A stretch of DNA of 64,000 nt. Source: Mayamaea pseudoterrestris (Eukaryota). Each line of letters starts with the position of its first letter. The first letter of the stretch is position 1. A model generated the notes under the pieces. That model did no database searches. It was not told the DNA's origin and was given only the letters and a program-made list of their open reading frames with translations. The position numbers and the translations under genes were made by a program. Positions 14,851 to 64,000 of the stretch are shown one piece after another. The stretch covers positions 1,736,001 through 1,800,000 of the forward strand of contig BROI01000002.1 of the NCBI GenBank assembly GCA_027923505.1. Reading direction: 5' to 3'.

Positions 14851-17800
14851 ATGCCACTTTGCTCCGTATGCCGTCGCGAAAACCTCAAAAAGTCAGACTT
14901 TTCAACCTCCCAATTAAAGAAAAAGGCGCATGAACGAATCTGCAAACGTTGTCGCACCAACCAAGGCGAGGCACGTGAGGGTCCGCCGGCCGAAACTGCT
15001 CTAGGTTTTGAGGAGGAGCAACAACAAGTATCGCCAAATATATCGCCAAGTCTAGTTGGCATCGATGGTGATGATGATATAGCAATTAGCAAGGAGCTTG
15101 AGGTTGCGGAGATGAGAATTGCAGACGGAGGAGAGTCCATGGCGACTGACAACGATGAGCATTTTGATGCGCTGGTCAAGTCATCGTCGTTTGCCCAGCA
15201 GGCACTCGAAGAAATGCTGGACGACCTGCATGACGATTTCACGCGAGACATTGAACGACAAGAATCTATAGACGAGCAAGAAATGACTGCTGTCGTAGAC
15301 GATATGACGCTGCAGTACGAGGACGAGGAGTTGGAGGCGGACGGCTCGCCAGCGCCACATTTGGACGACGATGATGAAAGTGACGACTCAGTCGAGTCGA
15401 CTGCAGATGCGCAGCATTCAATGGCGGAAGATCTTGATGATGATGATTTTGTTTCCGTGGAAATTCTGACGGCCAAGCATCCAATCATTACACTCAACAA
15501 TCCACTTTCGACTGCTCCGTACGTGCTGCTGCTTTTGGAATCGACAAGAGCTGCTGATCAGTCAATGTTCACGTTAGAAGAGGTGCCTACGACTGCAACT
15601 CTATTGGAAGCGAATCGCATTGAATATGCGACTCTCGGCAAGACTGTGGATTCAGCGACTGCCAAGAGGCTCATGGCCGGCCACAGGAAACGTCAATATC
15701 CACTCTTGTTTTGCCAAGTTGGGCAATACGTGCAGTACGTTTGCGATGCCAGCCAAGTGCAACAACTTTGTGAACGAAACAAGCTAAGCGACATTTTGTT
15801 TGAACGGCGGGAAGCCTTGGCAGACTATGTTGAAACGATCGAAACTGCTGCTACCGAGGATGAGCAAGACGAGGCGTGTCAGTCTCCGAAGAATGTTTGG
15901 GACAGTTTTAGCGAATCCTTGTCATCCGTCGGCCGCGCCGCAAGTCCCGTGCAGCATTTAGTGCCAAATGAACTCGATGCGAATGCAAACATGGAGGTGC
16001 TTGGCGAAGAAGGCTTGGCAGCACAGAGTGGTAATGTTGATGAAGGTGATCTCGGAGTTGTGGAAATGTCGACGACATTACAAGCAGCTGCGGCCGAACC
16101 ATCAACTGCTCTTGCATCATCGTATTCGACAAAGATGAATCGTGAGTCGAACGATGGAGAGGAAAAGGCTGTTGACACTTCCATGGAGTCGTTCATGACG
16201 GCTAACGAAAGCGAACAAACAGTAGCGTCGGAGCACGAGAGGCCTAGCGAATTTACCACTCTGGACGAAGCGGACAATGATGGATCCGCTGTAGCTATGT
16301 CGTCCAACGTCTCCCAGATAGAACTTGGTTCGGATATGGCCATTTTGGAGACGTTGCAGGTCGCGAACCTGAATACACCTACATCTAGCACCATGCTCAT
16401 GGCAGATTCTCGCACTGACGTCGACGGCAGCATCAGCGAGGTGAACGAAGCGGGAGAGGAAGATGCCACGCATGTGCCTAGCTTTTCGGAAACACCAGTC
16501 AGCAAGCTAGTAGCGGGAGACCAGAGCTTTTCCAGTTTCATTGCTAAGAACAACAATGAACTGCCTGTCGAGCAAATCGGCCAAGGAAGCGCAATCACGG
16601 GCAGTTTACATGTTATTGACCGCGACGGCAGCGCTTCAGTGCATGAAGAGCCAGGGAACTTGATGGATATGTCAAGCGAATTGCGTGAAAAGGCTGAGTC
16701 GTCCTTGACGCAACTAGCAACTGGTGCGAAAAGTGCGAGCCACGATGGAAGCACAAGCCTGCCCACCGTAATCAATGATTTTAATGACTCTGGTCATGTT
16801 GTGCATAATCTTGTAAATGGCGCACCTCGTGATACAGAAATCGAACGAACGAGCATTCGAGACATGAAAACTACCAGCGCGGATAGTTCTACTTGCCCCC
16901 TTGAAGCTGAGCAACAACTGGGATCGCCTGTCGATTTCAAAGTCAGCTTGCTTCCGATACATGATACCGATGACAGTCAAGAAGTATCTGCAATATCCGA
17001 GCTCAAGCAGACTCCCACGCTTATCGATTCATCAGTTCAAGAACAATTTGCAGTTGTAGAACAGGCTCATAAGGTCGGCTTTAATTCTGCTTCTGGAGAC
17101 AAGAGAACGATAAACATTTCCGACGCAAGTGGTGTCGAACTACCAGCCAATGAGCCCCTGATCGGGCTAATGACTGTTGAGGAAAGAGCGGCTGGTTTCA
17201 GCCCCCCACAATCCTCCATGGCAGCGATTGAATCAACTGGAGCGCTAGCGATTGACGATGCGGAAGACGAGAGACCTCCACAAGGCAACAAAGCGACTGA
17301 TCTAACTCGAGTTGATCTACCGGTAGAAGGGACATTTTTATCTAATCGAATGCAAAATGTAGACGGATTGGAAGAATCGAGTGTTATGCACTCCATGCTC
17401 GATGGGGAAGATGGATCTTTTGTCGAATATGATTCTCCAACAGCGGCGCCCTTTTCTAGTGTCGAGGACGGCGTTGCAATGGACAAAAAGCGTGAGAATG
17501 GAGTACGCAATGTTACACCTGACTCATCCTTCTTATTTGAAACAGAAACGAAGGACTCGTCGGCGTCGTCAGTCAATGTCGATCGTTCGGAAACTTTGTC
17601 GAGGGCATCAGTGATTGTCGGTGATGGGACCGTATCTACACAAGAGACCGAAAACTATGAGCTGATAAGGGAACGCGTCTCTCCGACTGTCGGATCAGGC
17701 CTTCCTATTGCATTAACGCATGAACCAGGATTAAAAGAATCAAGTGACCTGGGTTTATCAAAACCAAAGCTGAATGCGTACCTTGATGCAGCTTCAAAAT

Positions 17801-21381: not shown

Positions 21382-22860
21382 TCAAACAGACGCAGTTGGA
21401 AAGGACAGACTATCATATTCACCTTCGTAATCTTGCTGTTCAAGCGGCTTGGTCTGGTACAGCAAAAGCCCTTCTGGTTGCAGCTGCTGCTGCGCAAACG
21501 TAAGTTGCGCTTGCTGGTTTAATTCTTCATCCGTGAGCTGCTGCTGCTGCTGCTGTTGTTGTTGTTGCTGAAACGACGTCAATGGTTCTGTCGTTGTCAT
21601 TTTCCCATGCAACTGCTGCTGCAACGATGCGCGGGCTTGCTCCGCGTCTCGCAAGGCTTTGGCAAGTGCCGAGTCGGTTGGCCAAGCGATTCCTTGTTGC
21701 TGCTGCTGCTGCTGCTGCATTGGTGTCGTTGGCCATGTTTTAGCTTGTTGCACTAGTTGCTGCTGCTGCTGCTGCTGCTGCTGATACAATACTTCTGTCG
21801 TCGTCGGCAATGGTTGATGGTTCTGCACTAGTTGCTGGTGCAAGTGTTGCATCTGCTTTTGTTCTTGATCAACCTTGAACTGCGCCATGGCCAAATCGGC
21901 TTGCGTTTGCAAAGTATTTGGCGCCAATCGCGTTGGAGTCAATCTTGATGGCAGCTTTGAATTCATTCGTCGCTTCTTGTTCAATGGCTGCGGCTCGTCG
22001 CATGCTGCTGGCGCCGCTGTTGGCTGCTGCTGCTCCAGCCACTTTGACGCGGCGCAAACGCGCTCACGCTCCCGCTGGCCACGTTCCAGTAGCTCGCGCA
22101 CGTTGCAGCAAGCACTTGGCGCCGTGTAGAGTGGCGTCGTTTCTGGTTTCTTGCCGCGGCCCAGCTGCTTAGCGGCGGCAGTTGTGTCGTGATTGTCGTT
22201 TGGAGAGGCTACTGCGGCGCGAGCTGCAGCTGATTCCACTTGCCGCAGCGCTGAATGACCAGTCGCCGCGGGGGATGATCCTGTAGCAGCGGCTGCTCCT
22301 GCTGCACTACCAGTTTCCATGGATACACTAGCACTATCGCTATTTGCGTCTGCTGGCTGCTCCTCCACTGTTACCTGCTTTTCATCATTATTCAGTTGCT
22401 GCAGTTTTGTCGCATGCGAAACATCCAGTCGCTTTCCAATCGGCACGAGGCGCGAGTGCAGCAGCCACAGATACGTGGACGCCAGTTGCAGTCGCCCCAG
22501 TTGCTGCGCCTCCATGGCTGCCTGCAGGAGCGTTTCGCACTCGGCCAAGATGCAGTCGTAGGTATTGGTGGTGGCCAACAGGCCGGAGGGAATACTGGCG
22601 GCGGCAGCCTTGGAGGAGCGGAGTAAATCTGATGTTAGTAAGCTACTGGAGACTTGCGTGACTGTACTCTTGGGAGTTGGCTTGTGAATTCTCTTCTTTT
22701 TCGTTCTTGTTGTAGCTGCTGTTGTTGCGGCAATGGGTGAACTCGACGCATGAGCCGGCAGTGGCGGCGGTAACGGATTTGCTGCACTTGTATAAGCGGC
22801 ATTGGTAGCATTCGCTGATGATCTGTTTGGTTGCTGCATTGAAAGAGGTAAAGAAGACAT
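21382..22860 (-). CDS. Hypothetical Gln/Ala-rich protein with several polyQ tracts; probable start ATG 22860
   Basis: Long ORF with a structured-looking core YDCILAECETLLQAAMEAQQLGRLQLASTYLWLLHSRLV; function not recognised. Confidence 0.7.
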   Translation of the reverse strand: MSSLPLSMQQPNRSSANATNAAYTSAANPLPPPLPAHASSSPIAATTAATTRTKKKRIHKPTPKSTVTQVSSSLLTSDLLRSSKAAAASIPSGLLATTNTYDCILAECETLLQAAMEAQQLGRLQLASTYLWLLHSRLVPIGKRLDVSHATKLQQLNNDEKQVTVEEQPADANSDSASVSMETGSAAGAAAATGSSPAATGHSALRQVESAAARAAVASPNDNHDTTAAAKQLGRGKKPETTPLYTAPSACCNVRELLERGQRERERVCAASKWLEQQQPTAAPAACDEPQPLNKKRRMNSKLPSRLTPTRLAPNTLQTQADLAMAQFKVDQEQKQMQHLHQQLVQNHQPLPTTTEVLYQQQQQQQQQLVQQAKTWPTTPMQQQQQQQQGIAWPTDSALAKALRDAEQARASLQQQLHGKMTTTEPLTSFQQQQQQQQQQQLTDEELNQQAQLTFAQQQLQPEGLLLYQTKPLEQQDYEGEYDSLSFPTASV

Positions 22861-43844: not shown

Positions 43845-44140
43845 TGTTTCTTTCACTGTAAATTGTAGTGAAAAAGTACAAAATAGGTCGACGATGAAGG
43901 AGGGTCGCTTCAAGACGCTGCTCCACGATCACGCTTCGCAGTCATCCGTGCCGTGCATCCATGCGTGGGCAGCTGTACTGCATCAGTCACTCTGGCGTGA
44001 GAAACGGAGTCGTGTGACATTATTTCGCTCATGCTAAAATGTCAGTCGAGGTTGTACTATGTACTATAGCCTCCCAGTCGAGGACATCTTCCGGATAAAA
44101 TGACATCAGCATGACCCAATCGAAAGGGCTATATCGGATA

Positions 44141-44315
44141 TGACGCAGTTTTCACTGGCACTCGTTTCAAACTACAGCCTCGTGACGCAGTTATCACTGG
44201 CACTCGTTTCATATTAGTGCCTTATGACGTACTTTTCACTGGCACTCGTTTCGTATAATTGCCTCATGACGCAGTTATCACTGGCACTCGTTTCGTACTA
44301 TTGCCTTAGTGACGT
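44141..44315. repeat. Four 42-bp tandem units (28-bp conserved core + 14-15-bp variable part) in a divergent intergenic region
   Basis: TGACG(CAG/TAC)TT(T/A)TCACTGGCACTCGTTTC starts at 44141, 44183, 44225 and 44267, with a terminal TGACGT at 44310. Confidence 0.93.
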
Positions 44316-44486: not shown

Positions 44487-45149
44487 ATGTCGCTAATTGA
44501 ACAACAACATGACGAATCCGCGACAGCGGCAGTCTTTCTCGACGCGCTGCCATACGTTGACCAAGTAGACGAAACATACGATGCCCTTGCTCAATCCTTG
44601 GTCGAAGAGGAAATGCAAACAATGCAGAAAGATGTACAGATAAACGATGACGATATCAAGCCAATCAAATATACCACGAAATTGTTTGAGCAAGAATACA
44701 ATCAGCGGAGTCGTCGCCTCGGTCCTTTGCCGGAATTGTTTAGCCATGACAAACGAAGCATCGAAATGGATCTTCATACCCTGGAGGATTATCAAGACGC
44801 TGTGAAAAGGGCTCGCACTGCATACGAAAAGGAGCGCCTGCGCGAAGTACAATTGAGCGTTGACAAGACAGAGTCGAGCTCCCTCTGGAAATTGCAAGCT
44901 GACAATGCGACGCGGCAGTTACAATCGTCCGAGCAAAGACTGGAGCATCAACGCCACATTGTTGAAAGAATTAATGCATTGCGATTGCAGGAGCAGGAAG
45001 GATTTGGTCGAGAGTTGGAGCGAGCGTCGCGTCAATTTCAAGAGTTAATTGACAAGAGGATGCAGCTGCAGCAAGCGATTGCTCAGCTTGAAGATGAACT
45101 TTCGACTGACAAAAGATCAGCAGCAGATGCTGTAGTGAACAATTCATAA
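44487..45149 (+). CDS. BCAS2: Pre-mRNA splicing factor SPF27/BCAS2-like (220 aa)
   Basis: LDALPYVD...AQSLVEEEM N-terminus; coiled-coil C-terminus with INALRLQEQ. Confidence 0.8.
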   Translation: MSLIEQQHDESATAAVFLDALPYVDQVDETYDALAQSLVEEEMQTMQKDVQINDDDIKPIKYTTKLFEQEYNQRSRRLGPLPELFSHDKRSIEMDLHTLEDYQDAVKRARTAYEKERLREVQLSVDKTESSSLWKLQADNATRQLQSSEQRLEHQRHIVERINALRLQEQEGFGRELERASRQFQELIDKRMQLQQAIAQLEDELSTDKRSAADAVVNNS

Positions 45150-50084: not shown

Positions 50085-51219
50085 CTAAATAAACTCTCGA
50101 TCCGGTCCTCGAATATCCATGGACAGTGGATCCGACGCGTCGCGAAAACCCTTGGGCGACGTTCGCTTACGTCCATACTCCGCGTGCAGGTCGAGCTCGT
50201 GGCGGCCCGTGAGCAGCTGACCAAACGACCGACCGCTCTGCACCTTGACAACCAAAACGACGACAAGACCAGTGACTAGCAGCACGCCCATGGCGACTCC
50301 GAATTTGCTCTTGCCGCTGGAGAGTGCGTCGTTGCTGCTAGTACTCGCTGGTTCAGCAAGCTTAGGAGCATGGTAGCCGGTATTTTCGTACGGATTGTAC
50401 ATGGTCGTTGGAGACTGCTCACTGCTTTGTTCGACGTTTGCCCTCGTCGGTATCATTGTTGGAAATGCAGTAGTCGTTGGTTGGCTTGACGGGGTTGTGA
50501 CTTGATGTTGCTCATCATGCTTCGATAATGGCGACGGAGAAATTGACGGCTGTTTCGATGGCAGCAATGGCTTCCTATATTCATCATTTGTTACTGCGGA
50601 CGGCTGCGCTGAAATAGTAGGAGCCTGATTGGCTAGTGTATTCGCGGATGGTCGAAGCGTGCTGGTCGGAGATAAGGTCATTGTCGGTGAATATGATGGA
50701 TTATTAGCCTCATTTTTCAATGGCGAAGGAGCCGGAGTCGGATACCTGCGTGAAGGAAGGGGCATGAAGCGATTACATGACCATGTGAGGAATAAAACGA
50801 ATACAGCTCGTAGAGGATGACTTGGGATTTGCAGAAACGTACCTACCGGTAGTGGCTGCTGGAGTATTGTGAATTGTTGGAGGACTCGTCGTGGTCGTTG
50901 ATTCTCCTTGGAAAGGAGACGGCTCACTCGGCGACGGCGCTCGCGTCGCATACGGCGCGCTTGCGGTCGGAGTAGCCGGCACATCCAAAACATCCACGTC
51001 GGTATTGAAATTGTAAGCGTCTTGTTGCTGCTGCTTATCGTTTCCTTGGTCATTCCTTGGAGGTGCCGTAAAGGTGACATCCTCCATCATTCGATGCCTC
51101 GTCGACGATGATGTATCGCTCGTCGTCGAAGGATCCACTGCAGGCGGATCCTGCAAGGTAAATGAGCTTCCATGCTTCACTATGATTAGGAGAGTTGAAA
51201 GAGTTTGTAGCCTCATCAT
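50085..51219 (-). CDS. Mucin-like Ser/Thr/Pro-rich type I membrane protein; exons 50843-51219 and 50085-50745
   Basis: Signal peptide MMRLQTLSTLLIIVKHGSS; GTACGT..CAG intron 50746-50842 joins TTGR|YPTPAPS; TM FGVAMGVLLVTGLVVVLVV. Confidence 0.78.
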
Positions 51220-51637
51220 GATGGAGTGTCTGTTTGTTACACTTGCTTGCTCGATGGCTTTGTTTGTTGTGATGAACGGAATGAATTTCAAAATCGACGA
51301 AAAGAAACGGTCTCCCGCGCGAGCCTACCTCGCGCCAGCCGCGTCTCGGTTTCGCTGCGACAATTATGCGACATTTTGCTCCCACCACGAAAATGCGCCT
51401 TCACAAATTCCGTCGTTCATTCCATCATCCATTCGAGCTGCGAGCAAAAGCTATTTTACTCCATCTATACTAAAAGTCAGAAGACATCTTACTGGACAAG
51501 AATCGTGGTTAATTTGCAGGTAGACTGCGAAGAAGGTCCCGGAAAAGCTAGTCGTTAACTGACAAGTGCAGTGTTCATTTCGCTCGGTCTCGCACGTCGC
51601 ACGTTGCTTCACAACCTTCTTTATAACAACAATAACA

Positions 51638-54600
51638 ATGTCAAGCAGCAACAAGCTGCATGCAATTTACGCGGCACTCGACAATTATCATTACGCCAAA
51701 GCTATCAAACTATGTCTACAGCAGCCTCCAAGCAACCTGTTGGTGCGAGTGTTGATGGCGCATGCCTTGGCCAAGTCGGGGCAGCGCTACAAATCTCTGC
51801 AAGTCGTCGCAGCCTTGCTGGAGGAACAGTTACAATACTTTTCAGAGCTCCAATTGGAACTAGTGTATGCGCAGTCACAGGAAGACTTGGATGCCAATGC
51901 GGCAACTGCTGCTGCTGCGTCGTTGGCGGCTCAACAATCACAGCAAATACAGTCAGTCGCGAAGAAGGGCAAGGCCAAGGGCAAGAAAAAGGCTACATCT
52001 GCAACTGCATCTCCAATAGAACCATGCTCAACAGCAGCAACTCCAGTGAAGCATTTGGACTGGATTGACCGACTGGATCATCCGCCGCGTCTACCGCAAG
52101 ATTGGGATCGCGTTCCACCGCCATTATCCGATTGGCCACTGTTTCACGACGAACATACGCTAGCTACATTGACGACGCTCATGTACCGACATTTGCGACT
52201 ACCATTGACTGCCTTTATGCTATACAAATGGGCAGTTGCATCATTTACAACACCGAGTCAAACGCTTTTGCGCAAGGCCTTCTTGTCGGGCTTGCCGGTG
52301 CTTGTGGCGCCGCAGTATGCAAAATCACAACAGCAGCCATCAAATGTCACACACGTCATCCTTCAAAGCATGCAAGCCGTGGCACTTCAGCTGGCTGGAC
52401 GTGTGCAAGGAACGGAATCGGTCTTGGCGCTCCAGTGGGCGGCGCAAGCCTGCACGTGGCAAATCGATTTGATGGAACGTCATGCGAATGAGGATGCAGC
52501 AATGACAACAAGCACCATGGCTCGACTCACCGAATTGCTAGTGGCGCGGGCTCTTGACAGCTGCAGCGATAGTGGCCAAGCATTAATGACAATGGACAGT
52601 GCCATTGCGAAGGATGAATCATCCGATTTTTTGCTGCAGTCAGAATGCTTCCTGCTGTATATAGATGCGCTGGATCGACAAGGCAAACTTGAGGAGAAAC
52701 TTCACGCTATTGTTGAACGTTTAAAAGGCAGCGCCACAGAAGAAAGTAATGAGAACAATAGGAATCGTGACAATCAACAACGCGGACAAGATCAGCAGCT
52801 TGTCTACCCACCCCGTCGTACATTGCTCGACTTGCAGGCGCAAACGCTCCAAACCATGGGCCGATTCGAAGAGGCGCTGGTGATTCTGACGTCGCAGCTG
52901 CAGCTATATCCTGACAATTGGTCCTTTTGGAAGCGACATGCCGAATGCGCGGCAAAGTTAGAGTCAGGCACTCAAGTTACTAGTGCATTTGCTTTTGAAA
53001 TGTTACAACAATCTGAAACAACTTGTTCCAGTGGCTTGCTGCTGCGTGGGCCTTGCTTAATTCGAGTCGAGCTGGCATATCAAAGTTGCTTACTCCAGCA
53101 ACCTGGATCGAATGACCAATTATTGGTCGCGAAATTAGTGGATGAAATTATTGTCTACAGCAGCCAGGTTGCGCCGCGTGCGCTGTGTTGCTATTCGGAT
53201 GTGGAGCCATATCTCAACTATATTTTGACGACGACATCTCATCCAACTCGCGAGATGGCTTCGCGTCGCCTCTTGGACTGGCTTCTGGACTTTCGATTGC
53301 CGCCAGTATCAGAGGATGGCAAGGAGCGACGCAGTGAGTTACGAAAGTACATTGTCGCCATTCAATTGACCCATAAAGTTGTTTCACACATGGAAAGAAC
53401 ATGTCAATTTGAGTGTTTGCCTGATTGGAAGGAGTATCTCAAAACTTGGGAAGAGTTCAAGGCGTACGACATTATACACGTGGATGACCCAAAGGAAAAC
53501 CGACCGGCCGACGAACTAATTCTTCTCGCCGTGCAGCAATTGCTCTTACAAGACTCAAGCGATGATGCGAATCTTGTATTAATCTCATTGATATTGGAGG
53601 CCGGTATGGAATATTCACCCTACAATGCCAGTCTCAAGATTGCAGCGCTGCGTGTGTATGGACTGCTCCATGCCGCCACACGAGCATACGACTTGTATCA
53701 ATGCCTCTTCATCAAGCACATTCAGTATGAGTCATGCGCCTACCTCATTCTCCCAATTCTGAGAGACAACGGGTTGTATGAAGAAACACTGGACGTCTGT
53801 AAGCAGGTCATGCGATTGCAGCGGATTTCGTTGAATGAAGCGGCAGACTATTCCGGCAGGGCCATGGAGAATGGTGCGCGGAGCAAGGCCGACGAGTTTG
53901 TTCAGTTTCAGCGCAGGCAATTGAGTCATAGCTTGACAGCGCTGGAAGCAAGAGGCTTGGTTCTTGACGCTGCACCAATGTTTGGACAAGCGGACAGCAA
54001 CTGGGTACCAGGTGCTTTTCATGGAATAATTGGGAGTGACATGGATTATGATCGAGCCACGGAAATGATTACGGAGGCGCACGACCCTCTGGGGGCGTTT
54101 GCCATTCTACAAGCCCAGAGGAATAGTGACAAAAACTATTGTCAATGGAGTGACAATCGTGATTTGGAAGTCTTGCCTCATGAGATTTTGTCACGCCGCA
54201 AGGTAGAATCGACCGAGGACATTGTGAGAGACGCTAGGCAGCGAGGACACGTACATGGCTTACTACTACGAGCGACTCTCTGTATTGCATCTTCGAAAGG
54301 TTTGAAGAAGGGCAAAGTTGTCGAACCAAGCGACGAAGCGAAAAGTCGTTGCGCGTGCCTACTAGCGGCCATTGAGGCATTTTCAAATGACTGTTGCGTA
54401 AGCGCCCCTTTGCACAAAGACCTGGTCAAGGCGTTGCTTTGTAGCTGCCGTGTGATTGCTGGATTGGATACGGGTGTGTTTCATGCCACCGATCAAACCA
54501 CTGTAACATCCCTTGCTGAGAAAGAATCAACGATCGTGAAGATACTTGAGGAGCAGCAGCTCGCATTGGAGTCGGCGATGAAGGAGCTATCGAGAATGGA

Positions 54601-54991
54601 AGGAGACGTGGTTTCTTTTGTGAGCCGACTACTACCAGAATGTGTCGTTCCAGTCTTTGCCTTGTGCCAAATAGTTTCAAAGCTGTTCAACCTTTATGGA
54701 TGGGGTAGAAGGAAGCGAAGCACAAAGCCATGCGCTGCGGCTCTTGCAAATGTCGCGAGCGCACTCGCTGCTCTGCTAGTTGTTGCCAGCAAGTCAGTTG
54801 CTGGCCTTCCCAAGGCTCACGAAGTGCCTGTTAACCTCGCACAAGGCGTCATAGCAGATATCATTAGCGTCAAAGTTTGTCGCGAAACAATATCGAGCAT
54901 TCGCCACTCGCAGGAGGTGACGTATGAACGTATTACAAGTTTGTGTCAGGAAATGAAAAAGAGTCTTGAAAGCTTCAACGTTCAAGAGTAG
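51638..54991 (+). CDS. NAA25: NatB N-acetyltransferase auxiliary subunit (NAA25/MDM20-like); probable start ATG 51638
   Basis: IYAALDNYHYAKAIKLC, PDNWSFW, LRGPCL, CCYSDVEPYL, PADELILLAV, SPYNASLKI, IKHIQYES motifs. Confidence 0.87.
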   Translation: MSSSNKLHAIYAALDNYHYAKAIKLCLQQPPSNLLVRVLMAHALAKSGQRYKSLQVVAALLEEQLQYFSELQLELVYAQSQEDLDANAATAAAASLAAQQSQQIQSVAKKGKAKGKKKATSATASPIEPCSTAATPVKHLDWIDRLDHPPRLPQDWDRVPPPLSDWPLFHDEHTLATLTTLMYRHLRLPLTAFMLYKWAVASFTTPSQTLLRKAFLSGLPVLVAPQYAKSQQQPSNVTHVILQSMQAVALQLAGRVQGTESVLALQWAAQACTWQIDLMERHANEDAAMTTSTMARLTELLVARALDSCSDSGQALMTMDSAIAKDESSDFLLQSECFLLYIDALDRQGKLEEKLHAIVERLKGSATEESNENNRNRDNQQRGQDQQLVYPPRRTLLDLQAQTLQTMGRFEEALVILTSQLQLYPDNWSFWKRHAECAAKLESGTQVTSAFAFEMLQQSETTCSSGLLLRGPCLIRVELAYQSCLLQQPGSNDQLLVAKLVDEIIVYSSQVAPRALCCYSDVEPYLNYILTTTSHPTREMASRRLLDWLLDFRLPPVSEDGKERRSELRKYIVAIQLTHKVVSHMERTCQFECLPDWKEYLKTWEEFKAYDIIHVDDPKENRPADELILLAVQQLLLQDSSDDANLVLISLILEAGMEYSPYNASLKIAALRVYGLLHAATRAYDLYQCLFIKHIQYESCAYLILPILRDNGLYEETLDVCKQVMRLQRISLNEAADYSGRAMENGARSKADEFVQFQRRQLSHSLTALEARGLVLDAAPMFGQADSNWVPGAFHGIIGSDMDYDRATEMITEAHDPLGAFAILQAQRNSDKNYCQWSDNRDLEVLPHEILSRRKVESTEDIVRDARQRGHVHGLLLRATLCIASSKGLKKGKVVEPSDEAKSRCACLLAAIEAFSNDCCVSAPLHKDLVKALLCSCRVIAGLDTGVFHATDQTTVTSLAEKESTIVKILEEQQLALESAMKELSRMEGDVVSFVSRLLPECVVPVFALCQIVSKLFNLYGWGRRKRSTKPCAAALANVASALAALLVVASKSVAGLPKAHEVPVNLAQGVIADIISVKVCRETISSIRHSQEVTYERITSLCQEMKKSLESFNVQE

Positions 54992-55047
54992 CCCGGCCAT
55001 GCACTCTGGTGTCATTTGTTGGCGATACTGAACTGCCTCTGCCACAT

Positions 55048-57142
55048 AGACTGCCATAATGGCCTGGAGACCCCAGAATATAAAAACATATATACATAGG
55101 AAAGAATTGAACCAATAGTCTTGTCAGTTGTGGTGTGGAACCCAGCATTGCGCCACGAGACTCCGCACATTCAACAAAGGGTTGAATGTGCTAACAGTGC
55201 ACCATGTTAGGCTACAGGATCATCAGTGGCACATCCAGCAACTTGTTGGATCTGCAAGCAGTGCACCTCAAGTGGCAAGCCAGACTGCTGGAATGGCCCA
55301 CAGAGACTAGAATACAACTAACATGAAGTTTAATAGAGAATGGGACTGCTAGTCTTGTCGTTTTGGGTGTGGAACCCATCACCGTGCCAGGAGACTCCGC
55401 ACATTCAACAAATGGTTGAATGTGCCAGCAGTGCACCCTTTTTGGCTACAGGGATCATCAGCATTGCCTGCTGAGCCCTCCAATTCCTTTCCATTCATGT
55501 TTGTTGACATGATGGGCTAGGCATTTTGACACATGCACCTCATTATCCATCACCATGGATGCTATTGGTGATACTTGGCAAATCCAGCAACTTGTTGGAT
55601 CTGCGAGCAGTGCACCTCAAGAGGCAAGCCAGACTGCCAGAATGGCCCACAGAGCCTAGCATACTACTAACATGAAGTTTAATAGTGAATGGGACTGATA
55701 GTCTTGTCGTTTTGGGTGTGGAACCCATCACCATGCCAGGAAACTCCGCACATTCAACAAATGGATGAATGTGCCAGCGGTGCACCCTTTTTGGCTACAG
55801 GGATCATCAGCATTGCCTGCTGAGCCCTCCAATTCCTTTCCATTCATGTTTGTTGACATGATGGGCTAGGCATTTTGACACATGCACCTCATTATCCACA
55901 CCATGGATGCTATTGGTGATACTTGGCAGATCCAACAACTTGTTGGATCTGCGAGCAGTGCACCTCAAGAGGCAAGCCAGACTGCCGGAATGACCCACAG
56001 AGCCTACAATACAACAAACATGAAGTTTAATAGTGAATGGGACTGATAGTCTTGTCGTTTTGGGTGTGCAACCCATCACCATGCCAGGAAACTCCACACA
56101 TTCAACCAATGGTTGAATGTGCCAGCAGTGCACCCTTTTTGGCTACAGGGATCATCAGCATTGCCTGCTGAGCCCTCCAATCCCTTTCCATTCATGTTTG
56201 TTGACATGATGGGCTAGGCATTTTGACACATGCACCTCATTATCCACACCATGGATGCTATTGGTGATACTTGGCAGATCCAGCAACTTGTTGGATCTGC
56301 GAGCAGTGCACCTCAAGAGGCAAGCCAGACTGCCGGAATGGCCCACAGAGCCTAGAATACAACTAACATGAAGTTTAATAGTGAATGGGACTGATAGGCT
56401 TGTCATTTGGGTGTGGAACCCATCACCATGCCAGGAAACTCCGCACATTCAACAAATGGTTGAATGTGCCAGCAGTGCACCCTTTTTGGCTACAGGGATC
56501 ATCAGCATTGCCTGCTGAGCCCTCCAATTCCTTTCCATTCATGTTTGTTGACATGATGGGCTAGGCATTTTGACACATGCACCTCATTATCCACACCATG
56601 GATGCTATTGGTGATACTTGGCAGATCCAGCAACTTGTTGGATCTGCGAGCAGTGCACCTCAAGAGGCAAGCCAGACTGCCAGAATGGCCCACAAAGCCT
56701 AGAATACAACTAACATGAAGTTTAATAGTGAATAGGACTTATAGTCTTGTTGTTTTGGGTGTGGAACCCATCACCGTGCCAGGAAACTCCGCACATTCAA
56801 CAAATGGTTGAATGTGCCAGCAGTGCACCCTTTTTGGCTACAGGGATCATCAGCATTGCCTGCTGAGCCCTCCAATCCCTTTCCATTCATGTTTGTTGAC
56901 ATGATGGGCTAGGCATTTTGACACATGCACCTCATTATCCACACCATGGATGCTATAGGTGATACTTGGCAAATCCAGCAACTTGTTGGATCTGCGAGCA
57001 GTGCACCTCAAGAGGCAAGCCAGACTGCCAGAATGGCCCACAGAGCCTAGCATACTACTAACATGAAGTTTAATAGTGAATAGGACTTATAGTCTTGTCG
57101 TTTTGGGTGTGGAACCCATCACCGTGCCAGGAAACTCCGCAC
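55048..57142. repeat. ~348-bp tandem satellite, block 1 (about 6 units; first unit degenerate and internally deleted)
   Basis: Unit GGATCATCAGCATTGCCTGCTGAGCCC...GGCTACAG recurs with a ~347-349-bp period. Confidence 0.97.
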
Positions 57143-58027
57143 TTTGCCATTCTACAAGCCCAGAGGAATAGTGACAAAAACTATTGTCAATGGAGTGACA
57201 ATCGTGATTTGGAAGTCTTGCCTCATGAGATTTTGTCACGCCGCAAGGTAGAATCGACCGAGGACATTGTGAGAGACGCTAGGCAGCGAGGACACGTACA
57301 TGGCTTACTACTACGAGCGACTCTCTGTATTGCATCTTCGAAAGGTTTGAAGAAGGGCAAAGTTGTCGAACCAAGCGAGAAGCGAAAAGTCGTTGCGGTG
57401 CCTACTAGCGGCCATTGAGGCATTTTCAAATGACTGTTGCGGAAGCGGCCCTTTGCACAAAGACCTGGTCAGGGCGTTGCTGCCGTGTGTTGCAGGTCCG
57501 TGTGGCTGATTGGATACGGGTGTGTTTCATTGCCACCGATGTAACATCCGCTGAGAAACAATCAACGAATCGTGAAGATACTTGAGGAGCAGCAGCTCGC
57601 ATTGGAGTCGGCAATGAAGGAGCTATCGAGAATGGAAGGAGACGTGGTTTCTTTTGTGAGCCGACTACTACCAGAATGTGTCGTTCCAGTCTTTGCCTTG
57701 TGCCAAATAGTTTCAAAGCTGTTCAACCTTTATGGATGGGGTAGAAGGAAGCGAAGCACAAAGCCATGCGCTGCGGCTCTTGCAAATGTCGCGAGCGCAC
57801 TCGCTGCTCTGCTAGTTGTTGCCAGCAAGTCAGTTGCTGGCCTTCCCAAGGCTCACGAAGTGCCTGTTAACCTCGCACAAGGCGTCATAGCAGATATCAT
57901 TAGCGTCAAAGTTTGTCGCGAAACAATATCGAGCATTCGCCGCTCGCAGGAGGTGACGTATGAACGTATTACAAGTTTGTGTCAGGAAATGAATAAGAGT
58001 CTTGAAAGCTTCAATGTTCAAGAGTAG
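57143..58027 (+). pseudogene. Duplicated 3' fragment of NAA25 (copy of 54098-54991) with clustered indels
   Basis: Near-identical to 54098 onward; frameshifting indels at ~57378-57570 and a few substitutions afterwards. Confidence 0.93.
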
Positions 58028-58083
58028 CCCGGCTATGCACTCTGGTATCATTTGTTGGCGATACTGAACTGCCTCTGCCACAT

Positions 58084-61000
58084 AGAATGCCATAATGGCC
58101 TGGAGACCCCAGAATTTAAAAACATATATACATAGGAAAGAATTGAACCAATAGTCTTGTCAGTTGTGGTGTGGAACCCAGCATTGCGCCACGAGACTCC
58201 GCACATTCAACAAAGGGTTGAATGTGCTAACAGTGCACCATGTTAGGCTACAGGATCATCAGTGGCACATCCAGCAACTTGTTGGATCTGCAAGCAGTGC
58301 ACCTCAAGTGGCAAGCCAGACTGCTGGAATGGCCCACAGAGACTAGAATACAACTAACATGAAGTTTAATAGAGAATGGGACTGCTAGTCTTGTCGTTTT
58401 GGGTGTGGAACCCATCACCGTGCCAGGAGACTCCGCACATTCAACAAATGGTTGAATGTGCCAGCAGTGCACCCTTTTTGGCTACAGGGATCATCAGCAT
58501 TGCCTGCTGAGCCCTCCAATCCCTTTCCATTCATGTTTGTTGACATGATGGGCTAGGCATTTTGACACATGCACCTCATTATCCATCACCATGGATGCTA
58601 TTGGTGATACTTGGCAGATCCAGCAACTTGTTGGATCTGCGAGCAGTGCACCTCAAGAGGCAAGCCAGACTGCCAGAATGGCCCACAGAGCCTAGCATAC
58701 TACTAACATGAAGTTTAATAGTGAATGGGACTGATAGTCTTGTCGTTTTGGGTGTGGAACCCATCACCATGCCAGGAAACTCCGCACATTCAACAAATGG
58801 ATGAATGTGCCAGCGGTGCACCCTTTTTGGCTACAGGGATCATCAGCATTGCCTGCTGAGCCCTCCAATTCCTTTCCATTCATGTTTGTTGACATGATGG
58901 GCTAGGCATTTTGACACATGCACCTCATTATCCATCACCATGGATGCTATTGGTGATACTTGGCAGATCCAGCAACTTGTTGGATCTGCGAGCAATGCAC
59001 CTCAAGAGGCAAGCCAGACTCCGGATTGCCCACAGAGCCTAGAATACAACTAACATGAAGTTTAATAGTGAATGGGACTGATAGTCTTGTCGTTTTGGGT
59101 GTGCAACCCATCACCATGCCAGGAAACTCCACACATTCAACCAATGGTTGAATGTGCCAGCAGTGCACCCTTTTTGGCTACAGGGATCATCAGCATTGCC
59201 TGCTGAGCCCTCCAATCCCTTTCCATTCATGTTTGTTGACATGATGGGCTAGGCATTTTGACACATGCACCTCATTATCCACACCATGGATGCTATTGGT
59301 GATACTTGGCAGATCCAGCAACTTCTTGGATCTGCGAGCAGTGCACCTCAAGAGACAAGCCAGACAGCCAGAATGGCCCACAGACCCTAGAATACAACAA
59401 TCATGGATTTTAACATGGACAGGGATTGGTAGTCCTGTCATTTTGGGTGTGGAACCCATCACCATGCCAGGAGACTCCGCACATTCAACAAATGGTTGAA
59501 TGTGCCAGCAGTGCACCCTTTTTGGCTACAGGGATCATCAGCATTGCCTGCTGAGCCCTCCAATCCCTTTTCATTCATGTTTGTTGACATGATGGGCTAG
59601 GCATTTTGACACATGCACCTCATTATCCACACCATGGATGCTATTGGTGATACTTGGCAGATCCAGCACCTTGTTGGATCTGTGAGCAGTGCACCTCAAG
59701 AGGCAAGCCAGACTGCCAGAATGGCCCACAGAGCCTAGAATACAACTTACATGACGTATAATAGTGAATGGGACTGCTAGTCTTATCGTTTAGGGTGTGG
59801 AACCCATCATCATGCCAGGGAACTCCGCACATTCAACAAATGGTTGAATGTGCCAGCAGTGCACCCTTTTTGGCTACAGGGATCATCAGCATTGCCTGCT
59901 GAGCCCTCCAATCCCTTTCCATTCATGTTTGTTGACATGATGGGCTAGGCATTTTGACACATGCACCTCATTATCCACACCATGGATGCTATTGGTGATA
60001 CTTGGCAGATCCAGCAACTTGTTGGATCTGCGAGCAGTGCACCTCAAGAGGCAAGCCAGACTCCGGATTGCCCACAGAGCCTAGAATACTACTAACATGA
60101 AGTTTAATAGTGAATAGGACTTATAGTCTTGTCGTTTTGGGTGTGGAACCCATCACCGTGCCAGGAAACTCCGCACATTCAACAAATGGTTGAATGTGCC
60201 AGCAGTGCACCCTGTTTGGCTACAGGGATCATCAGCATTGCCTGCTCAGCCCTCCAATCCCTTTCCATTCATGTTTGTTGACATGATGGGCTAGGCATTT
60301 TGACACATGCACCTCATTATCCACACCATGGATGCTATTGGTGATACCTGGCAGATCCAGCAACTTGTTGGATCTGCGAGCCGTGCACCTCAAGAGGCAA
60401 GCCAGACTGCCGGAATGGCCCACAGAGCCTAGAATACAACTAACATGAAGTTTAATAGTGAATAGGACTGATAGTCTTGTCATTTGGGTGTGGAACCCAT
60501 CACCATGCCAGGAAACTCTGCACATTCAACCAATGGTTAAATGTGCCAGCAGTGCACCCTTTTTGGCTACAGGGATCATCAGCATTGCCTGTTGAGCCCT
60601 CCAATTCCTTTCCATTCATGTTTGTTGACATGATGGGCTAGGCATTTTGATACATGCACCTTATTATCCACACCATGGATTCTATTGGTGATACTTGGCA
60701 GATCCAGCAACTTGTTGGATCTTCAAGCAGTGCACCTCAAGAGGCAAGCCAGACTCCGGATTGCCCACAGAGCCTAGAATACAACAAACATGAAGTTTAA
60801 TAGTGAATGGGATTGATAGTCTTGTCGTTTTGGGTGTGGAACCCATCACCATGCCAGGAGACTCCCCACATTCAACAAATGGTTGAATGTGCCAGCAGTG
60901 CACCCTTTTTGGCTACAGGGATCATCAGCATTGCCTGCTGAGCCCTCCAATCCCTTTCCATTCATGTTTGTTGACATGATGGGCTAGGCATTTTGACACA

Positions 61001-64000
61001 TGCACCTCATTATCCATCACCATGGATGCTATTGGTGATACTTGGCAGATCCAGCACCTTGCTGGATCTGCGAGCAGTGCACCTCAAGAGGCAAGCCAGA
61101 CTGCCGGAATGTCCCACAGAGCCTAGAATACAACTAACATGAAGTTTAATAGTGAATGTGACTGATAGTCTTGTCGTTTTGGGTGTGGAACCCATCATCA
61201 TGCCAGGAGACTCTGCACATTCCACAAATGGTTGAATGTGCCAGCAGTGCACCCTGTTTGGCTACAGGGATCATCAGCATTGCCTGCTCAGCCCTCCAAT
61301 TCCTTTCCATTCATGTTTGTTGACAAGATGGGCTAGGCATTTTGACACATGCACCTCATTATCCACACCATGGATGCTATTGGTGATACTTGGCAGATCC
61401 AGCAACTTGTTGGATCTGCGAGCAGTGCACCTCAAGAGGCAAGCCAGACTGCCGGAATGGCCCACAGAGCCTAGAATACAACTAACATGAAGTTTAATAG
61501 TGAATGGGACTGATAGTCTTGTCGTTTTGGGTGTGGAACCCATTACCATGCCAGGAGACTCCGCACATTCAACAAATGGCTGAATGTGCCAGCAGTGCAC
61601 CCTTTTTGGCTACAGGGATCATCAGCATTGCCTGCTGAGCCCTCCAATCCCTTTCCATTCATGTTTGTTGACATGATGGGCTAGGCATTTTGACACATGC
61701 ACCTCATCATCCACACCATGGATGCTATAGGTGATACTTGGCAGATCCAGCAACTTGTTGGATCTGCAAGCAGTGCACCTCAAGAGGCAAGCCAGACTGC
61801 CAGAATGGCCCACAGAGCCTAGAATACAACTAACATGAAGTTTAATAGTGAATGGGACTGATAGTCTTGTCGTTTTGGGTGTGGAACCCATCACCATGCC
61901 AGGAGTTTCCGCACATTCAACAAATGGCTGAATGTGCCAGCAGTGCACCCTTTTTGGCTACAGGGAGCATCAGCATTGCCTGCTGAGCCTTCCAATCCCT
62001 TTACATTCATGTTTGTTGACATGATGGGCTAGGCATTTTGATACATGCACCTTATTATCCACACCATGGATGCTATAGGTGATACTTGGCAGATCCAACA
62101 ACTTGTTGGATCTGCGAGCAGTGCACCTCAAGAGGCAAGCCAGACTGCCGGAATGACCCACAGAGCCTAGAATACAACAAACATGAAGTTTAATAGTGAA
62201 TGGGACTGCTAGTTTTGTTGTTTTGGGTGTGGAACCCATCACCGTGCCAGGAGTTTCCGCACATTCAACAAATGGTTGAATGTGCCAGCAGTGCACCCTT
62301 TTTGGCTACAGGGATCATCAGCATTGCCTGCTGAGCCCTCCAATCCCTTTCCATTCATGTTTGTTGACATGATGGGCTAGGCATTTTGACACATGCACCT
62401 CATTATCCACACCATGGATGCTATTGGTGATACTTGGCAGATCCAGCAACTTGTTGGATCTGCGAGCAGTGCACCTCAAGAGGCAAGCCAGACTGCCGGA
62501 ATGGCCCACAGAGCCTAGAATACAACTAACATGAAGTTTAATAGTGAATGGGACTGATTGTCTTGTTGTTTTGGGTGTGGAACCCATCACCATGCCAGGA
62601 AACTCTGCACATTCAACCTATGGTTGAATGTGCCAGCAGTGCACCCTTTTTGGCTACAGGGATCATCAGCATTGCCTGCTGAGCCCTCCAATCCATTTCC
62701 ACTCATGTTTGTTGACATGATGGGCTAGGCATTTTGACACATGCACCTCATTATCCACACCATGGATGCTATTGGTGATACTTGGCAGATCCAGCAACTT
62801 GTTGGATCTGCGAGCAGTGCACCTCAAGAGGCAAGCCAGACTGCCGGAATGGCCCACAGAGCCTAGAATACAACTAACATGAAGTTTAATAGTGAATGGG
62901 ACTGCTAGTCTTGTCGTTTTGGGTGTGGAACCCATCACCATGCCAGGAAACTCCGCACATTCAACAAATGGTTGAATGTGCCAGCAGTGCACCCTTTTTG
63001 GCTACAGGGATCATCAGCATTGCCTGCTGAGCCCTCCAATCCCTTTCCATTCATGTATGTTGACATGATGAGCTAGGCATTTTGACACATGCACCTCATT
63101 ATCCACACCATGGATGCTATGGGTGATACTTGGCAGATCCAGCAACTTGTTGGATCTGCGAGCAGTGCACCTCAAGAGGCAAGCCAGACGGCTGGAATGG
63201 CCCACATAGCCTAGAATACAACTAACATGAAGTTTAATAGTGAATAGGACTTATAGTCTTGTCATTTTGGGTGTGGAACACATCACCATGCCAGGAAACT
63301 CTGCACATTCAACAAATGGTTGAATGTGCCAGCAGTGCACCCTTTTTGGCTACAGGGATCATCAGCATTGCCTGCTGAGCCCTCCAATCCCTTTCCATTC
63401 ATGTTTGTTGACATGATGGGCTAGGCATTTTGACACATGCACCTCATTATCCATCACCATGGATGCTATTGGTGATACTTGGCAGATCCAGCAACTTGTT
63501 GGATCTGCGAGCAGTGCACCTCAAGAGGCAAGCCAGACTGCCGGAATGGCCCACATAGCCTAGAATACAACTAACATGAAGTTTAATAGTGAATGGGACT
63601 GATAGTCTTGTCGTTTTGGGTGTGGAACCCATCACCATGCCAGGAAACTCCGCACATTCAACAAATGGTTGAATGTGCCAGCAGTGCACCCTTTTTGGCT
63701 ACAGGGATCATCAGCATTGCCTGCTGAGCCCTCCAATCCCTTTCCATTCATGTTTGTTGACATGATGGGCTAGGCATTTTGACACATGCACCTCATTATC
63801 CACACCATGGATGCTATTGGTAATACTTGGCAGATCCAGCAACATGTTGGGTCTGCGAGCAGCGCACCTCAAAAGGCAAGCCAGAATGCCGGAATGGCAC
63901 ACAGACCCTAGAATACAACTATCATGAAGTTTAATAGTGAATGGGACCAATAGTCTTGTCGTTTTGGGTGTGGAACCCATCACCATGCCAGGAAACTCCG
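58084..64000. repeat. ~348-bp tandem satellite, block 2 (about 17 units, runs off the window end)
   Basis: Same unit; ORF-track echoes at 61274, 61622, 61970, 62318, 62666 and 63014 show an exact 348 spacing. Confidence 0.98.

What the first reader, a model, noticed from the sequence alone, without database searches (positions are those of the whole stretch)
55926..64000. Satellite carries two homologous 27-bp palindromes with compensatory substitutions, each followed by AGCAGTGCACC
Seen: each 348-bp unit has hairpin A GCAGATCCAGCAACTTGTTGGATCTGC (e.g. 62437) and hairpin B, typically GCACATTCAACAAATGGTTGAATGTGC (a variant starts at 62607). They align without gaps. Position 4/24 is G:C in A and C:G in B; position 7/21 is C:G in A and T:A in B, so the sequence changed while pairing was kept. 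Both are preceded by GA(T/A)ACT and followed by N-AGCAGTGCACC. The G.T mismatch in A is resolved in two opposite ways in individual copies (A:T at 55926-55952, G:C at 61045-61071), and B has a longer-stem variant at 56097-56121. Inference: a maintained dyad element repeated every ~174 bp. It could be a cruciform or dimeric-protein binding site, a recombination/rolling-circle origin, or a stem in a structured transcript. I do not recognise it as a described element.
Basis: partly seen in the sequence, partly recalled or inferred. Interest (0 to 1): 0.82.

Follow-up and report, generated by a model that had tools for sequence, protein, structure and literature searches.

The report
Algal satellite DNA with conserved hairpin core
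This is a real 348-base tandem repeat in an alga related to diatoms; each unit carries two related 27-base palindromes whose arms change together and which are the best-kept part of a much larger repeat family, a new example of a known kind of satellite DNA whose function is untested.

Summary
A 348-bp satellite fills 55227-57142 and 58263-64000. Every unit holds two gap-free homologous 47-nt blocks, 36/47 identical, 170 and 178 bp apart, each with a 27-nt near-palindrome. The rest of the two half-units shows no similarity.

The arms co-vary. Pairs 4/24 and 7/21 are compensated between A and B (p about 0.008). In contigs of four public runs, the two mismatch positions carry the pair-closing base in 92-98% (A) and 40-57% (B) of depth.

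In those runs the palindrome blocks have about 10-80 times the summed depth of the rest of the unit. They are therefore the shared core of a much larger repeat family. Inside this array they are no better conserved than the flanks (2.2% against 2.5%).

No Rfam family, tRNA or open frame was found, and the Helitron end signature is not met.

Best reading: a satellite superfamily whose hairpin- or cruciform-forming DNA module is maintained and acts in cis. Arm homogenisation by replication template switching, without function, remains a strong rival. Expression, chromosomal location and protein binding could not be tested.

The parts
51566..54991 (+). Flanking gene: NatB auxiliary subunit (MDM20/NAA25-like) ORF; the repeat-like sequence begins about 35 bp after its stop codon
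   Evidence: ORF list; Pfam PF09797 E 9.9e-36
55029..55226 (+). Degenerate edge unit, 76-84% like the canonical unit. It lacks palindrome A and its box and carries a B-type palindrome at 55165-55191 followed by AACAGTGCACC
   Evidence: blastn; pairwise alignment
55227..57142 (+). Satellite array, first part: 5.5 units of 348 bp, ending 4 nt into a palindrome B
   Evidence: TRF; junction sequences
55229..55255 (+). Edge copy of palindrome A with C at position 4 (as in B) opposite C at 24: an uncompensated C.C state, either an intermediate or a secondary change. Its duplicate lies at 58265-58291
57143..58262 (+). Copy of 54098-55226 (gene 3' end plus edge unit). It is part of a tandem segmental duplication, 54098-57142 to 57143-60176, at 96.9% identity
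   Evidence: blastn
58263..64000 (+). Satellite array, second part: 16.5 units of 348 bp, running off the window end
   Evidence: TRF
62777..62823 (+). Block A (example): GATACT-TG, palindrome A (62785-62811), one spacer base, AGCAGTGCACC
62947..62993 (+). Block B (example): GAAACT-CC, palindrome B (62955-62981), one spacer base, AGCAGTGCACC
55926..55952 (+). Perfect 27-nt form of palindrome A (A at position 10); a second copy lies at 62089-62115. This is the majority form in the four public runs
   Evidence: (62794 G>A in 92-98% of depth)
56097..56121 (+). Form of palindrome B with C at position 12 closing pair 12/16 (a perfect 25-nt palindrome). C at this position has a 40-57% depth share in the four runs
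   Evidence: (62966 A>C)

Best explanation
This is non-coding satellite DNA of an ochrophyte alga. The 348-bp unit consists of two half-units (170 + 178 bp) that share only a module of about 47 nt (perhaps about 70 nt). The module reads GA(T/A)ACT, 2 nt, a 27-nt palindrome, 1 nt, AGCAGTGCACC. It is the conserved core of a much larger and more diverse repeat family in this organism and in close relatives.

What is kept in the palindrome is complementarity between its arms. So the relevant state is a 12-13-bp intrastrand DNA stem: a hairpin on single-stranded DNA at replication, or a cruciform extruded from duplex DNA.

Most likely mechanism (inferred): the stem, together with its asymmetric flanking boxes, is a cis-acting DNA element placed once per nucleosome-sized interval. 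A protein that reads structure plus sequence recognises it, and/or it stalls and breaks replication. Repeats that carry it therefore persist and spread, whether through chromatin or centromere-type function or through recombination-driven amplification.

Shown: the array, the paralogy of the blocks, the arm co-variation, the family-wide excess of the blocks, and the lack of coding or known RNA families. Inferred: that the stem forms in vivo, that a protein reads it, and what it does for the cell or for the repeat.
For: - Array and blocks. The blocks align gap-free at 36/47 identity. The remaining 123 and 131 nt score like shuffles (15 against 14.35 +/- 2.1; 117 of 300 shuffles do as well).
- Two sites with at least 12/13 pairs, against 4 of 5000 shuffled units that reach 12/13 at all.
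- Compensation at 4/24 (G:C or C:G) and 7/21 (C:G or T:A): p = 0.0084 under independent sites.
- On 46 blocks, 92.0% of cells pair, against 86.1 +/- 1.1 in shuffles (0 of 500 reach it) and 24-36% when the partner is slid. Four pairs show changes on both sides.
- Four runs labelled as four organisms. Summed contig depth peaks are 15,397 / 37,924 (X1), 633,969 / 965,268 (X2), 654 / 820 (X4) and 197 / 233 (X5) on blocks A / B. The X part between them reads about 1,000, about 12,000-15,000, 17-52 and 2-25.
- The only variants listed inside the arms are 62794 G>A (92, 97, 98, 94% of depth), which makes A a perfect palindrome, and 62966 A>C (47, 40, 57, 51%), which closes the mismatch of B. Listed variant places: 2 in the 54 palindrome nt against 14 in the 102 other nt of the high-depth cores (Fisher p 0.056).
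- The perfect forms of A and B differ at three arm pairs, all compensated, plus the centre. My hand arithmetic gives 286/230230 x 1/27, about 5e-5.
- The one rearrangement junction in the window (57142/57143) lies 4 nt inside palindrome B. This fits a break-prone structure, but n = 1.
Against: - Inside this array the palindromes are not better conserved than the rest. Variant cells: palindromes 2.2%, 47-nt blocks 2.5%, outside blocks 2.5%, and the Y part only 1.3% (19 monomers). Most private changes in the arms break pairs. Individual copies are therefore not under visible purifying selection.
- The deep compensated events are few (two or three), and one template-switch event could create them all at once (PMC8794818, abstract read).
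- The depth profile comes from assembled contigs laid at 80% likeness or more. It measures conservation and abundance together and is not a copy number. One search left 18 variant rows unlisted, so further arm variants may exist.
- The edge unit lacks palindrome A altogether, and a minor family variant in the runs appears to carry only the right arm of B (table 5c). The element is therefore dispensable in some copies.
- The box AGCAGTGCACC is itself polymorphic in the family (40-55% alternative letters at three places behind B).
- There are no data on chromosomal position, chromatin, protein binding or in vivo structure.
Confidence: 0.4

Rival explanations
1. Neutral by-product. The palindromes have no function. 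Their arms are kept complementary by replication-linked template switching (quasi-palindrome correction), which copies one arm from the other. Concerted evolution of the satellite then spreads the corrected forms.
For: Template switching can create perfect stems and fix the pairing of existing stems in one event, producing multibase compensatory changes (PMC8794818, abstract read; listing). All differences between the perfect A and B forms are symmetric, as one arm-copying event per lineage would give. Variants at the two mismatch places go towards pairing. There is no extra conservation of the palindromes inside the array.
Against: Template switching does not explain why the asymmetric flanks (GAWACT, AGCAGTGCACC) are conserved together with the palindrome while the remaining 123 and 131 nt of the half-units diverged beyond recognition. 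Nor does it explain why the blocks stand out 10-80-fold in four runs. Palindromes are normally deletion-prone, so long persistence in two paralogous copies needs either a high correction rate or an advantage.
Confidence: 0.25
2. Derived from a transposable element. The 47-nt block is the conserved hairpin-bearing end of a rolling-circle (Helitron-like, HUH-nuclease) or other non-autonomous element. The array is a head-to-tail multimer of two such elements that share ends but not interiors.
For: The layout matches how rolling-circle ends are built: a hairpin, then about 12 nt of conserved sequence, then unrelated interiors, with high abundance of the end module compared with the interiors. Helitrons are reported to make tandem arrays through rolling-circle replication and to end in a hairpin plus CTAG after a 5' TC (PMC12001565, passages read). 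The X part begins with TC directly behind the box.
Against: CTRR occurs behind the hairpin in only 1 of the 4 hairpin/strand combinations (B, minus strand, position 9-12), and what follows there is not TC. The Y part does not begin with TC. No solo or dispersed copy was found in the 54,990 bases of gene-rich flank (blastn and nhmmer, best E 0.22). No target-site or terminal features are seen at the array edge. No Rep/helicase gene could be looked for, because no genome is held.
Confidence: 0.15
3. Structured transcript. The array is transcribed, for example by read-through from the NatB-subunit gene that ends about 35 bp upstream, and the stems act in RNA for processing, small-RNA production or protein binding.
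For: Compensated pairs are the classical sign of an RNA stem. On the + strand the mismatch in A is G.U, which RNA tolerates, whereas it is A.C on the - strand. The + strand unit folds somewhat better than shuffles (z -2.57) while the - strand does not (z -1.18). The array lies on the sense side just 3' of a gene.
Against: There were 0 matches to 4227 Rfam families at E up to 1 on both strands, so no hammerhead or other known self-cleaving or structured family. ARAGORN found 0 tRNA-like genes. In the family at large the G.T place is A:T, so the wobble gives no strand signal. A perfect palindrome pairs equally well on both strands and as DNA. A 12-13-bp stem is short for a small-RNA precursor (my own knowledge).
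Confidence: 0.1
4. Plain duplex binding site. A homodimeric sequence-specific protein binds the 27-bp palindrome in ordinary B-form DNA, and no hairpin or cruciform is involved.
For: It is an exact dyad with a single central base, 10 of 13 half-site positions are shared by A and B, and conserved flanking boxes are present.
Against: If positions 4, 7 and 12 were free to vary for such a protein, the two half-sites should drift independently. Instead they change together and keep complementarity. One protein would also have to accept both A and B half-sites.
Confidence: 0.08

Closest known systems
[quoted passage not shown]
   Same: A tandem satellite with a nucleosome-scale spacing of a dyad element. 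The dyad is predicted to form a stable stem. It is the conserved part of otherwise fast-diverging repeats.
   Different: Those dyads are short (under 10 bp) and defined statistically. Here there is one discrete 27-nt palindrome per half-unit, with paralogous copies that show compensated changes and asymmetric conserved flanks. Centromeric location and CENH3 association are unknown here.
CENP-B-box-type conserved motifs inside satellites (as discussed in PMC5889037)
   Same: A short conserved box (AGCAGTGCACC, GAWACT) recurs at fixed positions in a satellite and is shared between diverged sub-repeats.
   Different: No protein is known and the box is polymorphic in the family. The best-kept part is a palindrome whose arms co-vary, which a CENP-B box is not.
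Helitron/Helentron-derived tandem arrays (PMC12001565, passages read; PMC8268682 and PMC12628747, search listing only)
   Same: A hairpin followed by a short conserved tail, unrelated interiors, and tandem head-to-tail organisation.
   Different: The 5' TC / 3' CTRR signature is not met. No dispersed copies lie in 55 kb of flank. No Rep-helicase could be sought.
Quasi-palindrome correction by template switching (PMC8794818, abstract read)
   Same: It explains multibase compensated differences and mismatch-closing variants in a stem without stepwise selection.
   Different: It is a mutational mechanism, not an element class. It does not account for the conserved asymmetric flanks or for the excess of the module over the rest of the unit.
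Ribozyme-bearing satellites and retrozymes (newt satellite 2 type; recalled, no paper read)
   Same: Tandem units of about 330-350 bp with conserved stems.
   Different: No hammerhead or other Rfam ribozyme was found at E up to 1 on either strand.
Oomycete satellites PpSat1 and PpSat2 of Phytophthora parasitica (PMC7290008, passages read)
   Same: They are the only stramenopile satellite families found in my literature searches, and their monomers fall in the same size range.
   Different: That text has 0 occurrences of 'palindrom', 'hairpin' or 'inverted repeat'. No sequence comparison was possible.

Membership tests
Satellite DNA (tandem repeat family) | Long head-to-tail array of a monomer of about 100-500 bp with high inter-copy identity | tested here: met
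   348-bp period, 5.5 + 16.5 copies, 95-96% matches; 19 full monomers aligned
Satellite DNA (tandem repeat family) | Non-coding | tested here: met
   At least 3 stop codons per unit in each of the six frames. No ORF of 150 aa or more lies in the array units themselves; the one ORF listed in this region (57572-58027) sits in the duplicated gene end
Satellite DNA (tandem repeat family) | High abundance in the genome and presence in relatives | tested here: inconclusive
   Contigs of four runs with four organism labels cover the unit, and 1,882, 1,917, 132 and 76 contigs were laid. Depth is not a copy number and no single-copy reference was laid
Centromeric dyad-symmetry satellites | Dyad symmetry predicted to form a stable non-B structure | tested here: met
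   Two 27-nt palindromes per unit; DNA hairpins at -10.7 and -11.6 kcal/mol, z -3.7 and -3.95
Centromeric dyad-symmetry satellites | Located at the centromere and bound by the centromeric histone | not testable with these tools
   No genome or chromatin data. The array here abuts a gene in a gene-dense region
Helitron-type rolling-circle element | 5' TC and 3' CTRR termini, with a hairpin about 10-12 nt before the 3' end | tested here: not met
   CTRR occurs behind the hairpin in 1 of 4 hairpin/strand combinations and is not followed by TC. The box ends in CACC (definition from PMC12001565)
Helitron-type rolling-circle element | Dispersed copies and a Rep-helicase-encoding autonomous partner | tested here: inconclusive
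   No copy in window 1-54990. The genome is not available for a Rep-helicase search
Self-cleaving-ribozyme satellites and retrozymes | A hammerhead or other ribozyme motif in each unit | tested here: not met
   0 Rfam matches at E up to 1 over 54000-64000, both strands
tRNA-derived SINE or tRNA-like repeat | A tRNA-like fold | tested here: not met
   ARAGORN found 0 genes; Rfam 0 matches
Higher-order (dimeric) satellite repeat | The two half-units are homologous along their whole length | tested here: not met
   Only the 47-nt block aligns (36/47). X against Y scores like shuffles, apart from an 11-nt CCA(T)CACCATG at the same offset (one real monomer was used)

The most novel reading that the evidence does not exclude
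The hairpin-plus-box module is the genetically specified recognition site of a structure-reading DNA protein, placed once per nucleosome. It would define centromeres, or else act as an origin for rolling-circle or break-induced amplification, in a lineage next to the diatoms. That would be a satellite whose function depends on an extruded DNA stem, with compensatory evolution between paralogous copies as direct evidence. Such evidence is lacking for the non-B-DNA model of centromere identity.
Probability: 0.12. Interest if true: 0.8.

Novelty: new member of a known kind. Interest (0 to 1): 0.4.

Why it matters
Satellite DNA evolves so fast that conserved parts are rare, so functional arguments usually rest on statistics of short dyads. 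This repeat offers a discrete module that can be tested. It has two paralogous 27-nt palindromes whose arms changed together, and they are the only part of the unit shared across a large repeat family and several related organisms.

If the stem is read as DNA structure, it gives a handle on how repeats are recognised or amplified in the poorly studied algae next to the diatoms. Satellites are not mentioned in the genome papers I could search for these algae. If template switching alone explains the pattern, it is a clean natural example of that mechanism keeping palindromes perfect in non-coding DNA.

Either way it is a lineage-specific satellite, not a new class of element.

Tried and rejected
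- Whole genome: none is held, so genome-wide monomers, array positions and a Rep-helicase search were impossible.
- Public collections: the pattern GTTGNATNTGCNAGCAGTGCACC gave 3 loci in metagenome contigs. All are 23-nt chance matches with no palindrome or array. It gave 0 in viral contigs.
- RNA evidence: no RNA holder was listed among the 7 runs, so expression, strand and circular or small RNAs were not tested.
- Rfam at E up to 1: 0 hits. ARAGORN: 0.
- Dispersed copies in window 1-54990: best nhmmer E 0.22, at 51132-51180. Its sequence, read, shows only a short GGATCC-type resemblance, so I rejected it.
- Earlier notes of this scan: none for this place or sequence. A word search returned only unrelated mitochondrial, viral and phage items.
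- Taxon: the Atlas search gave only 'Eukaryota', and the cluster members carry no organism names. The best named hit is Tetraparma gracilis at 88%. I did not resolve the species.
- Half-unit homology: X against Y was compared on one real monomer (62777-63124), not on the array consensus.
- Extended stem from the flanks: GGTG upstream of A pairs with the CACC of the box in the RNA fold. Block B has CCAG at that place, so I rejected it as a conserved feature.
- Pol III A/B-box resemblance of the B arm: considered by eye only and not supported by Rfam or ARAGORN.
- Dfam and Repbase: not available.
- Supplements of the papers were not opened.

Full report
WHAT IS THERE

The window is gene-dense eukaryotic DNA of about 49% G+C with long intron-free ORFs. 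Pfam finds a NatB auxiliary subunit, a C2CD5-like protein, mitochondrial ATP synthase alpha, DUF1995 and others. The best named homologue of ATP synthase alpha is from Tetraparma gracilis (88% identity over 93% of the query). Named diatom and other ochrophyte hits lie at 76-81%. The organism is therefore a photosynthetic stramenopile near the diatom/bolidophyte branch. I did not resolve it further.

Tandem Repeats Finder reports a 348-bp period at 55227-57142 (5.5 copies, 96% matches) and at 58263-64000 (16.5 copies, 95%; runs off the window). The gap between them is not foreign DNA. Segment 54098-57142, which holds the 3' end of the NatB-subunit ORF, a degenerate edge unit and 5.5 units, is repeated in tandem at 57143-60176 with 96.9% identity. 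The junction at 57142/57143 lies 4 nt inside a palindrome B.

The unit is non-coding, with at least 3 stops per unit in every frame. It has no match to any of 4227 Rfam families at E up to 1 on either strand and no tRNA-like gene.

THE OBSERVATION

- Blocks A and B align without gaps over 47 nt with 36 identities.
- Their spacing is 170 and 178 bp.
- Two sites with at least 12 of 13 pairs occur in the unit, whereas only 4 of 5000 shuffled units reach 12/13 at all.
- As single-stranded DNA the blocks fold into the expected stems (-10.7 and -11.6 kcal/mol; z -3.7 and -3.95; -13.2 kcal/mol for the perfect copy at 55926).

The corrections concern the extent of the array, the 2-nt spacer after GAWACT, and the fact that the 'repaired' copies at 61045 and 56096 each carry a new break elsewhere.

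IS THE DYAD MAINTAINED?

Three lines of evidence bear on this.

(1) Paralogy with unrelated flanks. Outside the 47-nt block, the 123-nt X part and the 131-nt Y part score no better than shuffles (15 against 14.35 +/- 2.1; 117 of 300 shuffles as good). The exception is an 11-nt CCA(T)CACCATG at the same offset upstream of both blocks (one real monomer was used, not the consensus).

(2) Co-variation of the arms.
- Of six arm differences between consensus A and B, four form two symmetric, complementary pairs. The chance of that under independent sites is 0.0084.
- On all 46 blocks, 92.0% of cells pair, against 86.1 +/- 1.1 after shuffling the 3' partners (0 of 500 reach the observed value) and 24-36% when the partner is slid by 1-3 columns. 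Four pairs show a change on both sides. These cells descend from few events, so they are not independent.

(3) The wider family. Contigs of four public runs, carrying four different organism labels from two studies, were laid on 62690-63070 at 80% likeness or more.
- Summed contig depth is sharply uneven in all four runs. Peaks on block A and on block B plus about 45 nt behind it are 15,397 and 37,924 (X1), 633,969 and 965,268 (X2), 654 and 820 (X4), and 197 and 233 (X5).
- The X part between them reads about 1,000, about 12,000-15,000, 17-52 and 2-25. The distal Y part is similarly low.
- The loose-end consensus sequences show that the less-covered parts exist in the other family members but are too diverged to be laid.
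- The blocks are therefore the conserved core of a much larger, heterogeneous repeat family.
- Among the 40 listed variant places (18 more were not listed), only two fall inside the 54 palindrome positions, and both close the mismatch of the window's consensus.
  - 62794 G>A (position 10 of A) has 92, 97, 98 and 94% of depth. The majority form of A is thus a perfect 27-nt palindrome, the form seen in the window at 55926 and 62089.
  - 62966 A>C (position 12 of B) has 47, 40, 57 and 51%, giving C:G at 12/16.
- The flanking core positions carry 14 listed variant places in 102 nt (Fisher p 0.056).
- The box is itself polymorphic. Behind A, 62816 A>G is at about 40% or more. Behind B, 62986 A>C, 62987 G>C and 62991 A>T range from 26% to 81% of depth, about 40-55% in X2 and X4.
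- The perfect forms of A and B then differ at three arm pairs, all compensated, plus the central base. My hand arithmetic gives about 5e-5 under independent sites.

EVIDENCE AGAINST SELECTION ON INDIVIDUAL COPIES

Within this array, variant cells are 2.2% in the palindromes, 2.5% in the 47-nt blocks, 2.5% outside the blocks, 3.9% in X and only 1.3% in Y (19 full monomers). Among the monomers beyond the segmental duplicate the figures are 2.2% against 2.2%. Most private arm changes break pairs.

The edge unit at 55029-55226 lacks palindrome A and its box. The first A copy, at 55229, has C at position 4 opposite C at 24. This is either an intermediate between the B-like and A-like states or a secondary change. 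A minor family variant in the runs seems to join the Y part directly to the right arm of B (table 5c).

WHAT IT MOST LIKELY IS

It is a lineage-specific satellite superfamily whose conserved core is a hairpin-forming module. Symmetric co-variation means that arm-to-arm complementarity, or arm-to-arm copying, is what persists. That argues against plain half-site reading by a homodimer on B-form DNA.

The conserved asymmetric flanks (GAWACT upstream, AGCAGTGCACC downstream) are kept in sequence, not in pairing. The GGTG...CACC pairing seen around A in the RNA fold has no counterpart around B. This suggests a directional site made of structure plus sequence.

I therefore favour, at 0.4, a cis-acting DNA stem (hairpin or cruciform) that a protein reads and/or that perturbs replication, so that repeats carrying it persist and spread. 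This is the class of explanation proposed for dyad-rich centromeric satellites (PMC5889037, passages read). The steps from 'arms co-vary and the module is conserved' to 'forms in vivo, is bound, has a role' are inference.

RIVALS

(a) Template switching at quasi-palindromes can create and repair stems in one event (PMC8794818, abstract read). It explains the symmetric differences and the mismatch-closing variants without function. It does not explain the conserved asymmetric flanks or the 10-80-fold excess of the module (0.25).

(b) Helitron-like or other transposon ends would explain a hairpin plus short conserved tail with unrelated interiors and tandem multimers (PMC12001565, passages read). 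But the TC...CTRR signature is not met, and no dispersed copy lies in 54,990 bases of flank (0.15).

(c) A structured transcript is possible. The array lies sense-side, about 35 bp behind a stop codon, and the + strand folds at z -2.57 against -1.18 for the - strand. No Rfam family fits, and no RNA run was available (0.1).

(d) A duplex-binding homodimer (0.08).

NOVELTY

Satellites with conserved dyads or boxes are a known kind, so this is a new member from a lineage where I found nothing in print. In the searches, the Parmales genome paper has 0 occurrences of 'satellite', 'centromer' or 'telomer'. 'Satellitome' has 0 occurrences in the 10 papers listed. The only stramenopile satellite paper found, on Phytophthora, has 0 mentions of palindromes or hairpins.

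The discrete paralogous palindromes with compensated changes make it a better-than-usual test case. What it does remains untested.

Noticed in passing
54098-57142 and 57143-60176: A tandem segmental duplication of 3,045 bp at 96.9% identity. It copies the last ~900 bp of the NatB-subunit ORF (leaving a truncated ORF at 57572-58027), the edge unit and 5.5 satellite units. The junction lies 4 nt inside palindrome B and shows no clear microhomology.
   Followed up: partly
55029-55270 (copy at 58065-58306): The array edge is older-looking. It has a unit without palindrome A, then a B-type block followed after only 64 bp by an A-type block; the 108-bp distal Y part is missing there. Its TCAAGTGG variant is the majority form in the public runs (62829 A>T, about 90% of depth).
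   Followed up: partly
62774-62823: Around block A only, GGTG upstream pairs with the CACC of the downstream box, and ACT pairs with AGT, extending the predicted stem to about 50 nt. Block B has no equivalent.
   Followed up: partly
62994-63040: The ~45 nt behind block B are as over-represented in the four runs as the palindrome blocks themselves.
   Followed up: no
44139-44315: A separate 42/84-bp tandem repeat (4.1 or 2.1 copies, 83-86% matches), just upstream of the ORF at 44487-45149.
   Followed up: no
756-808, 8319-8344, 21758-21783: Perfect trinucleotide runs (AGC x17.7, CAG x8.7, TGC x8.7) that fall within the coordinates of long ORFs.
   Followed up: no
window 1-54990: No copy of the satellite unit or of its hairpin module in 55 kb of gene-rich flank. 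In this stretch the family occurs only as an array, not as scattered single copies.
   Followed up: yes
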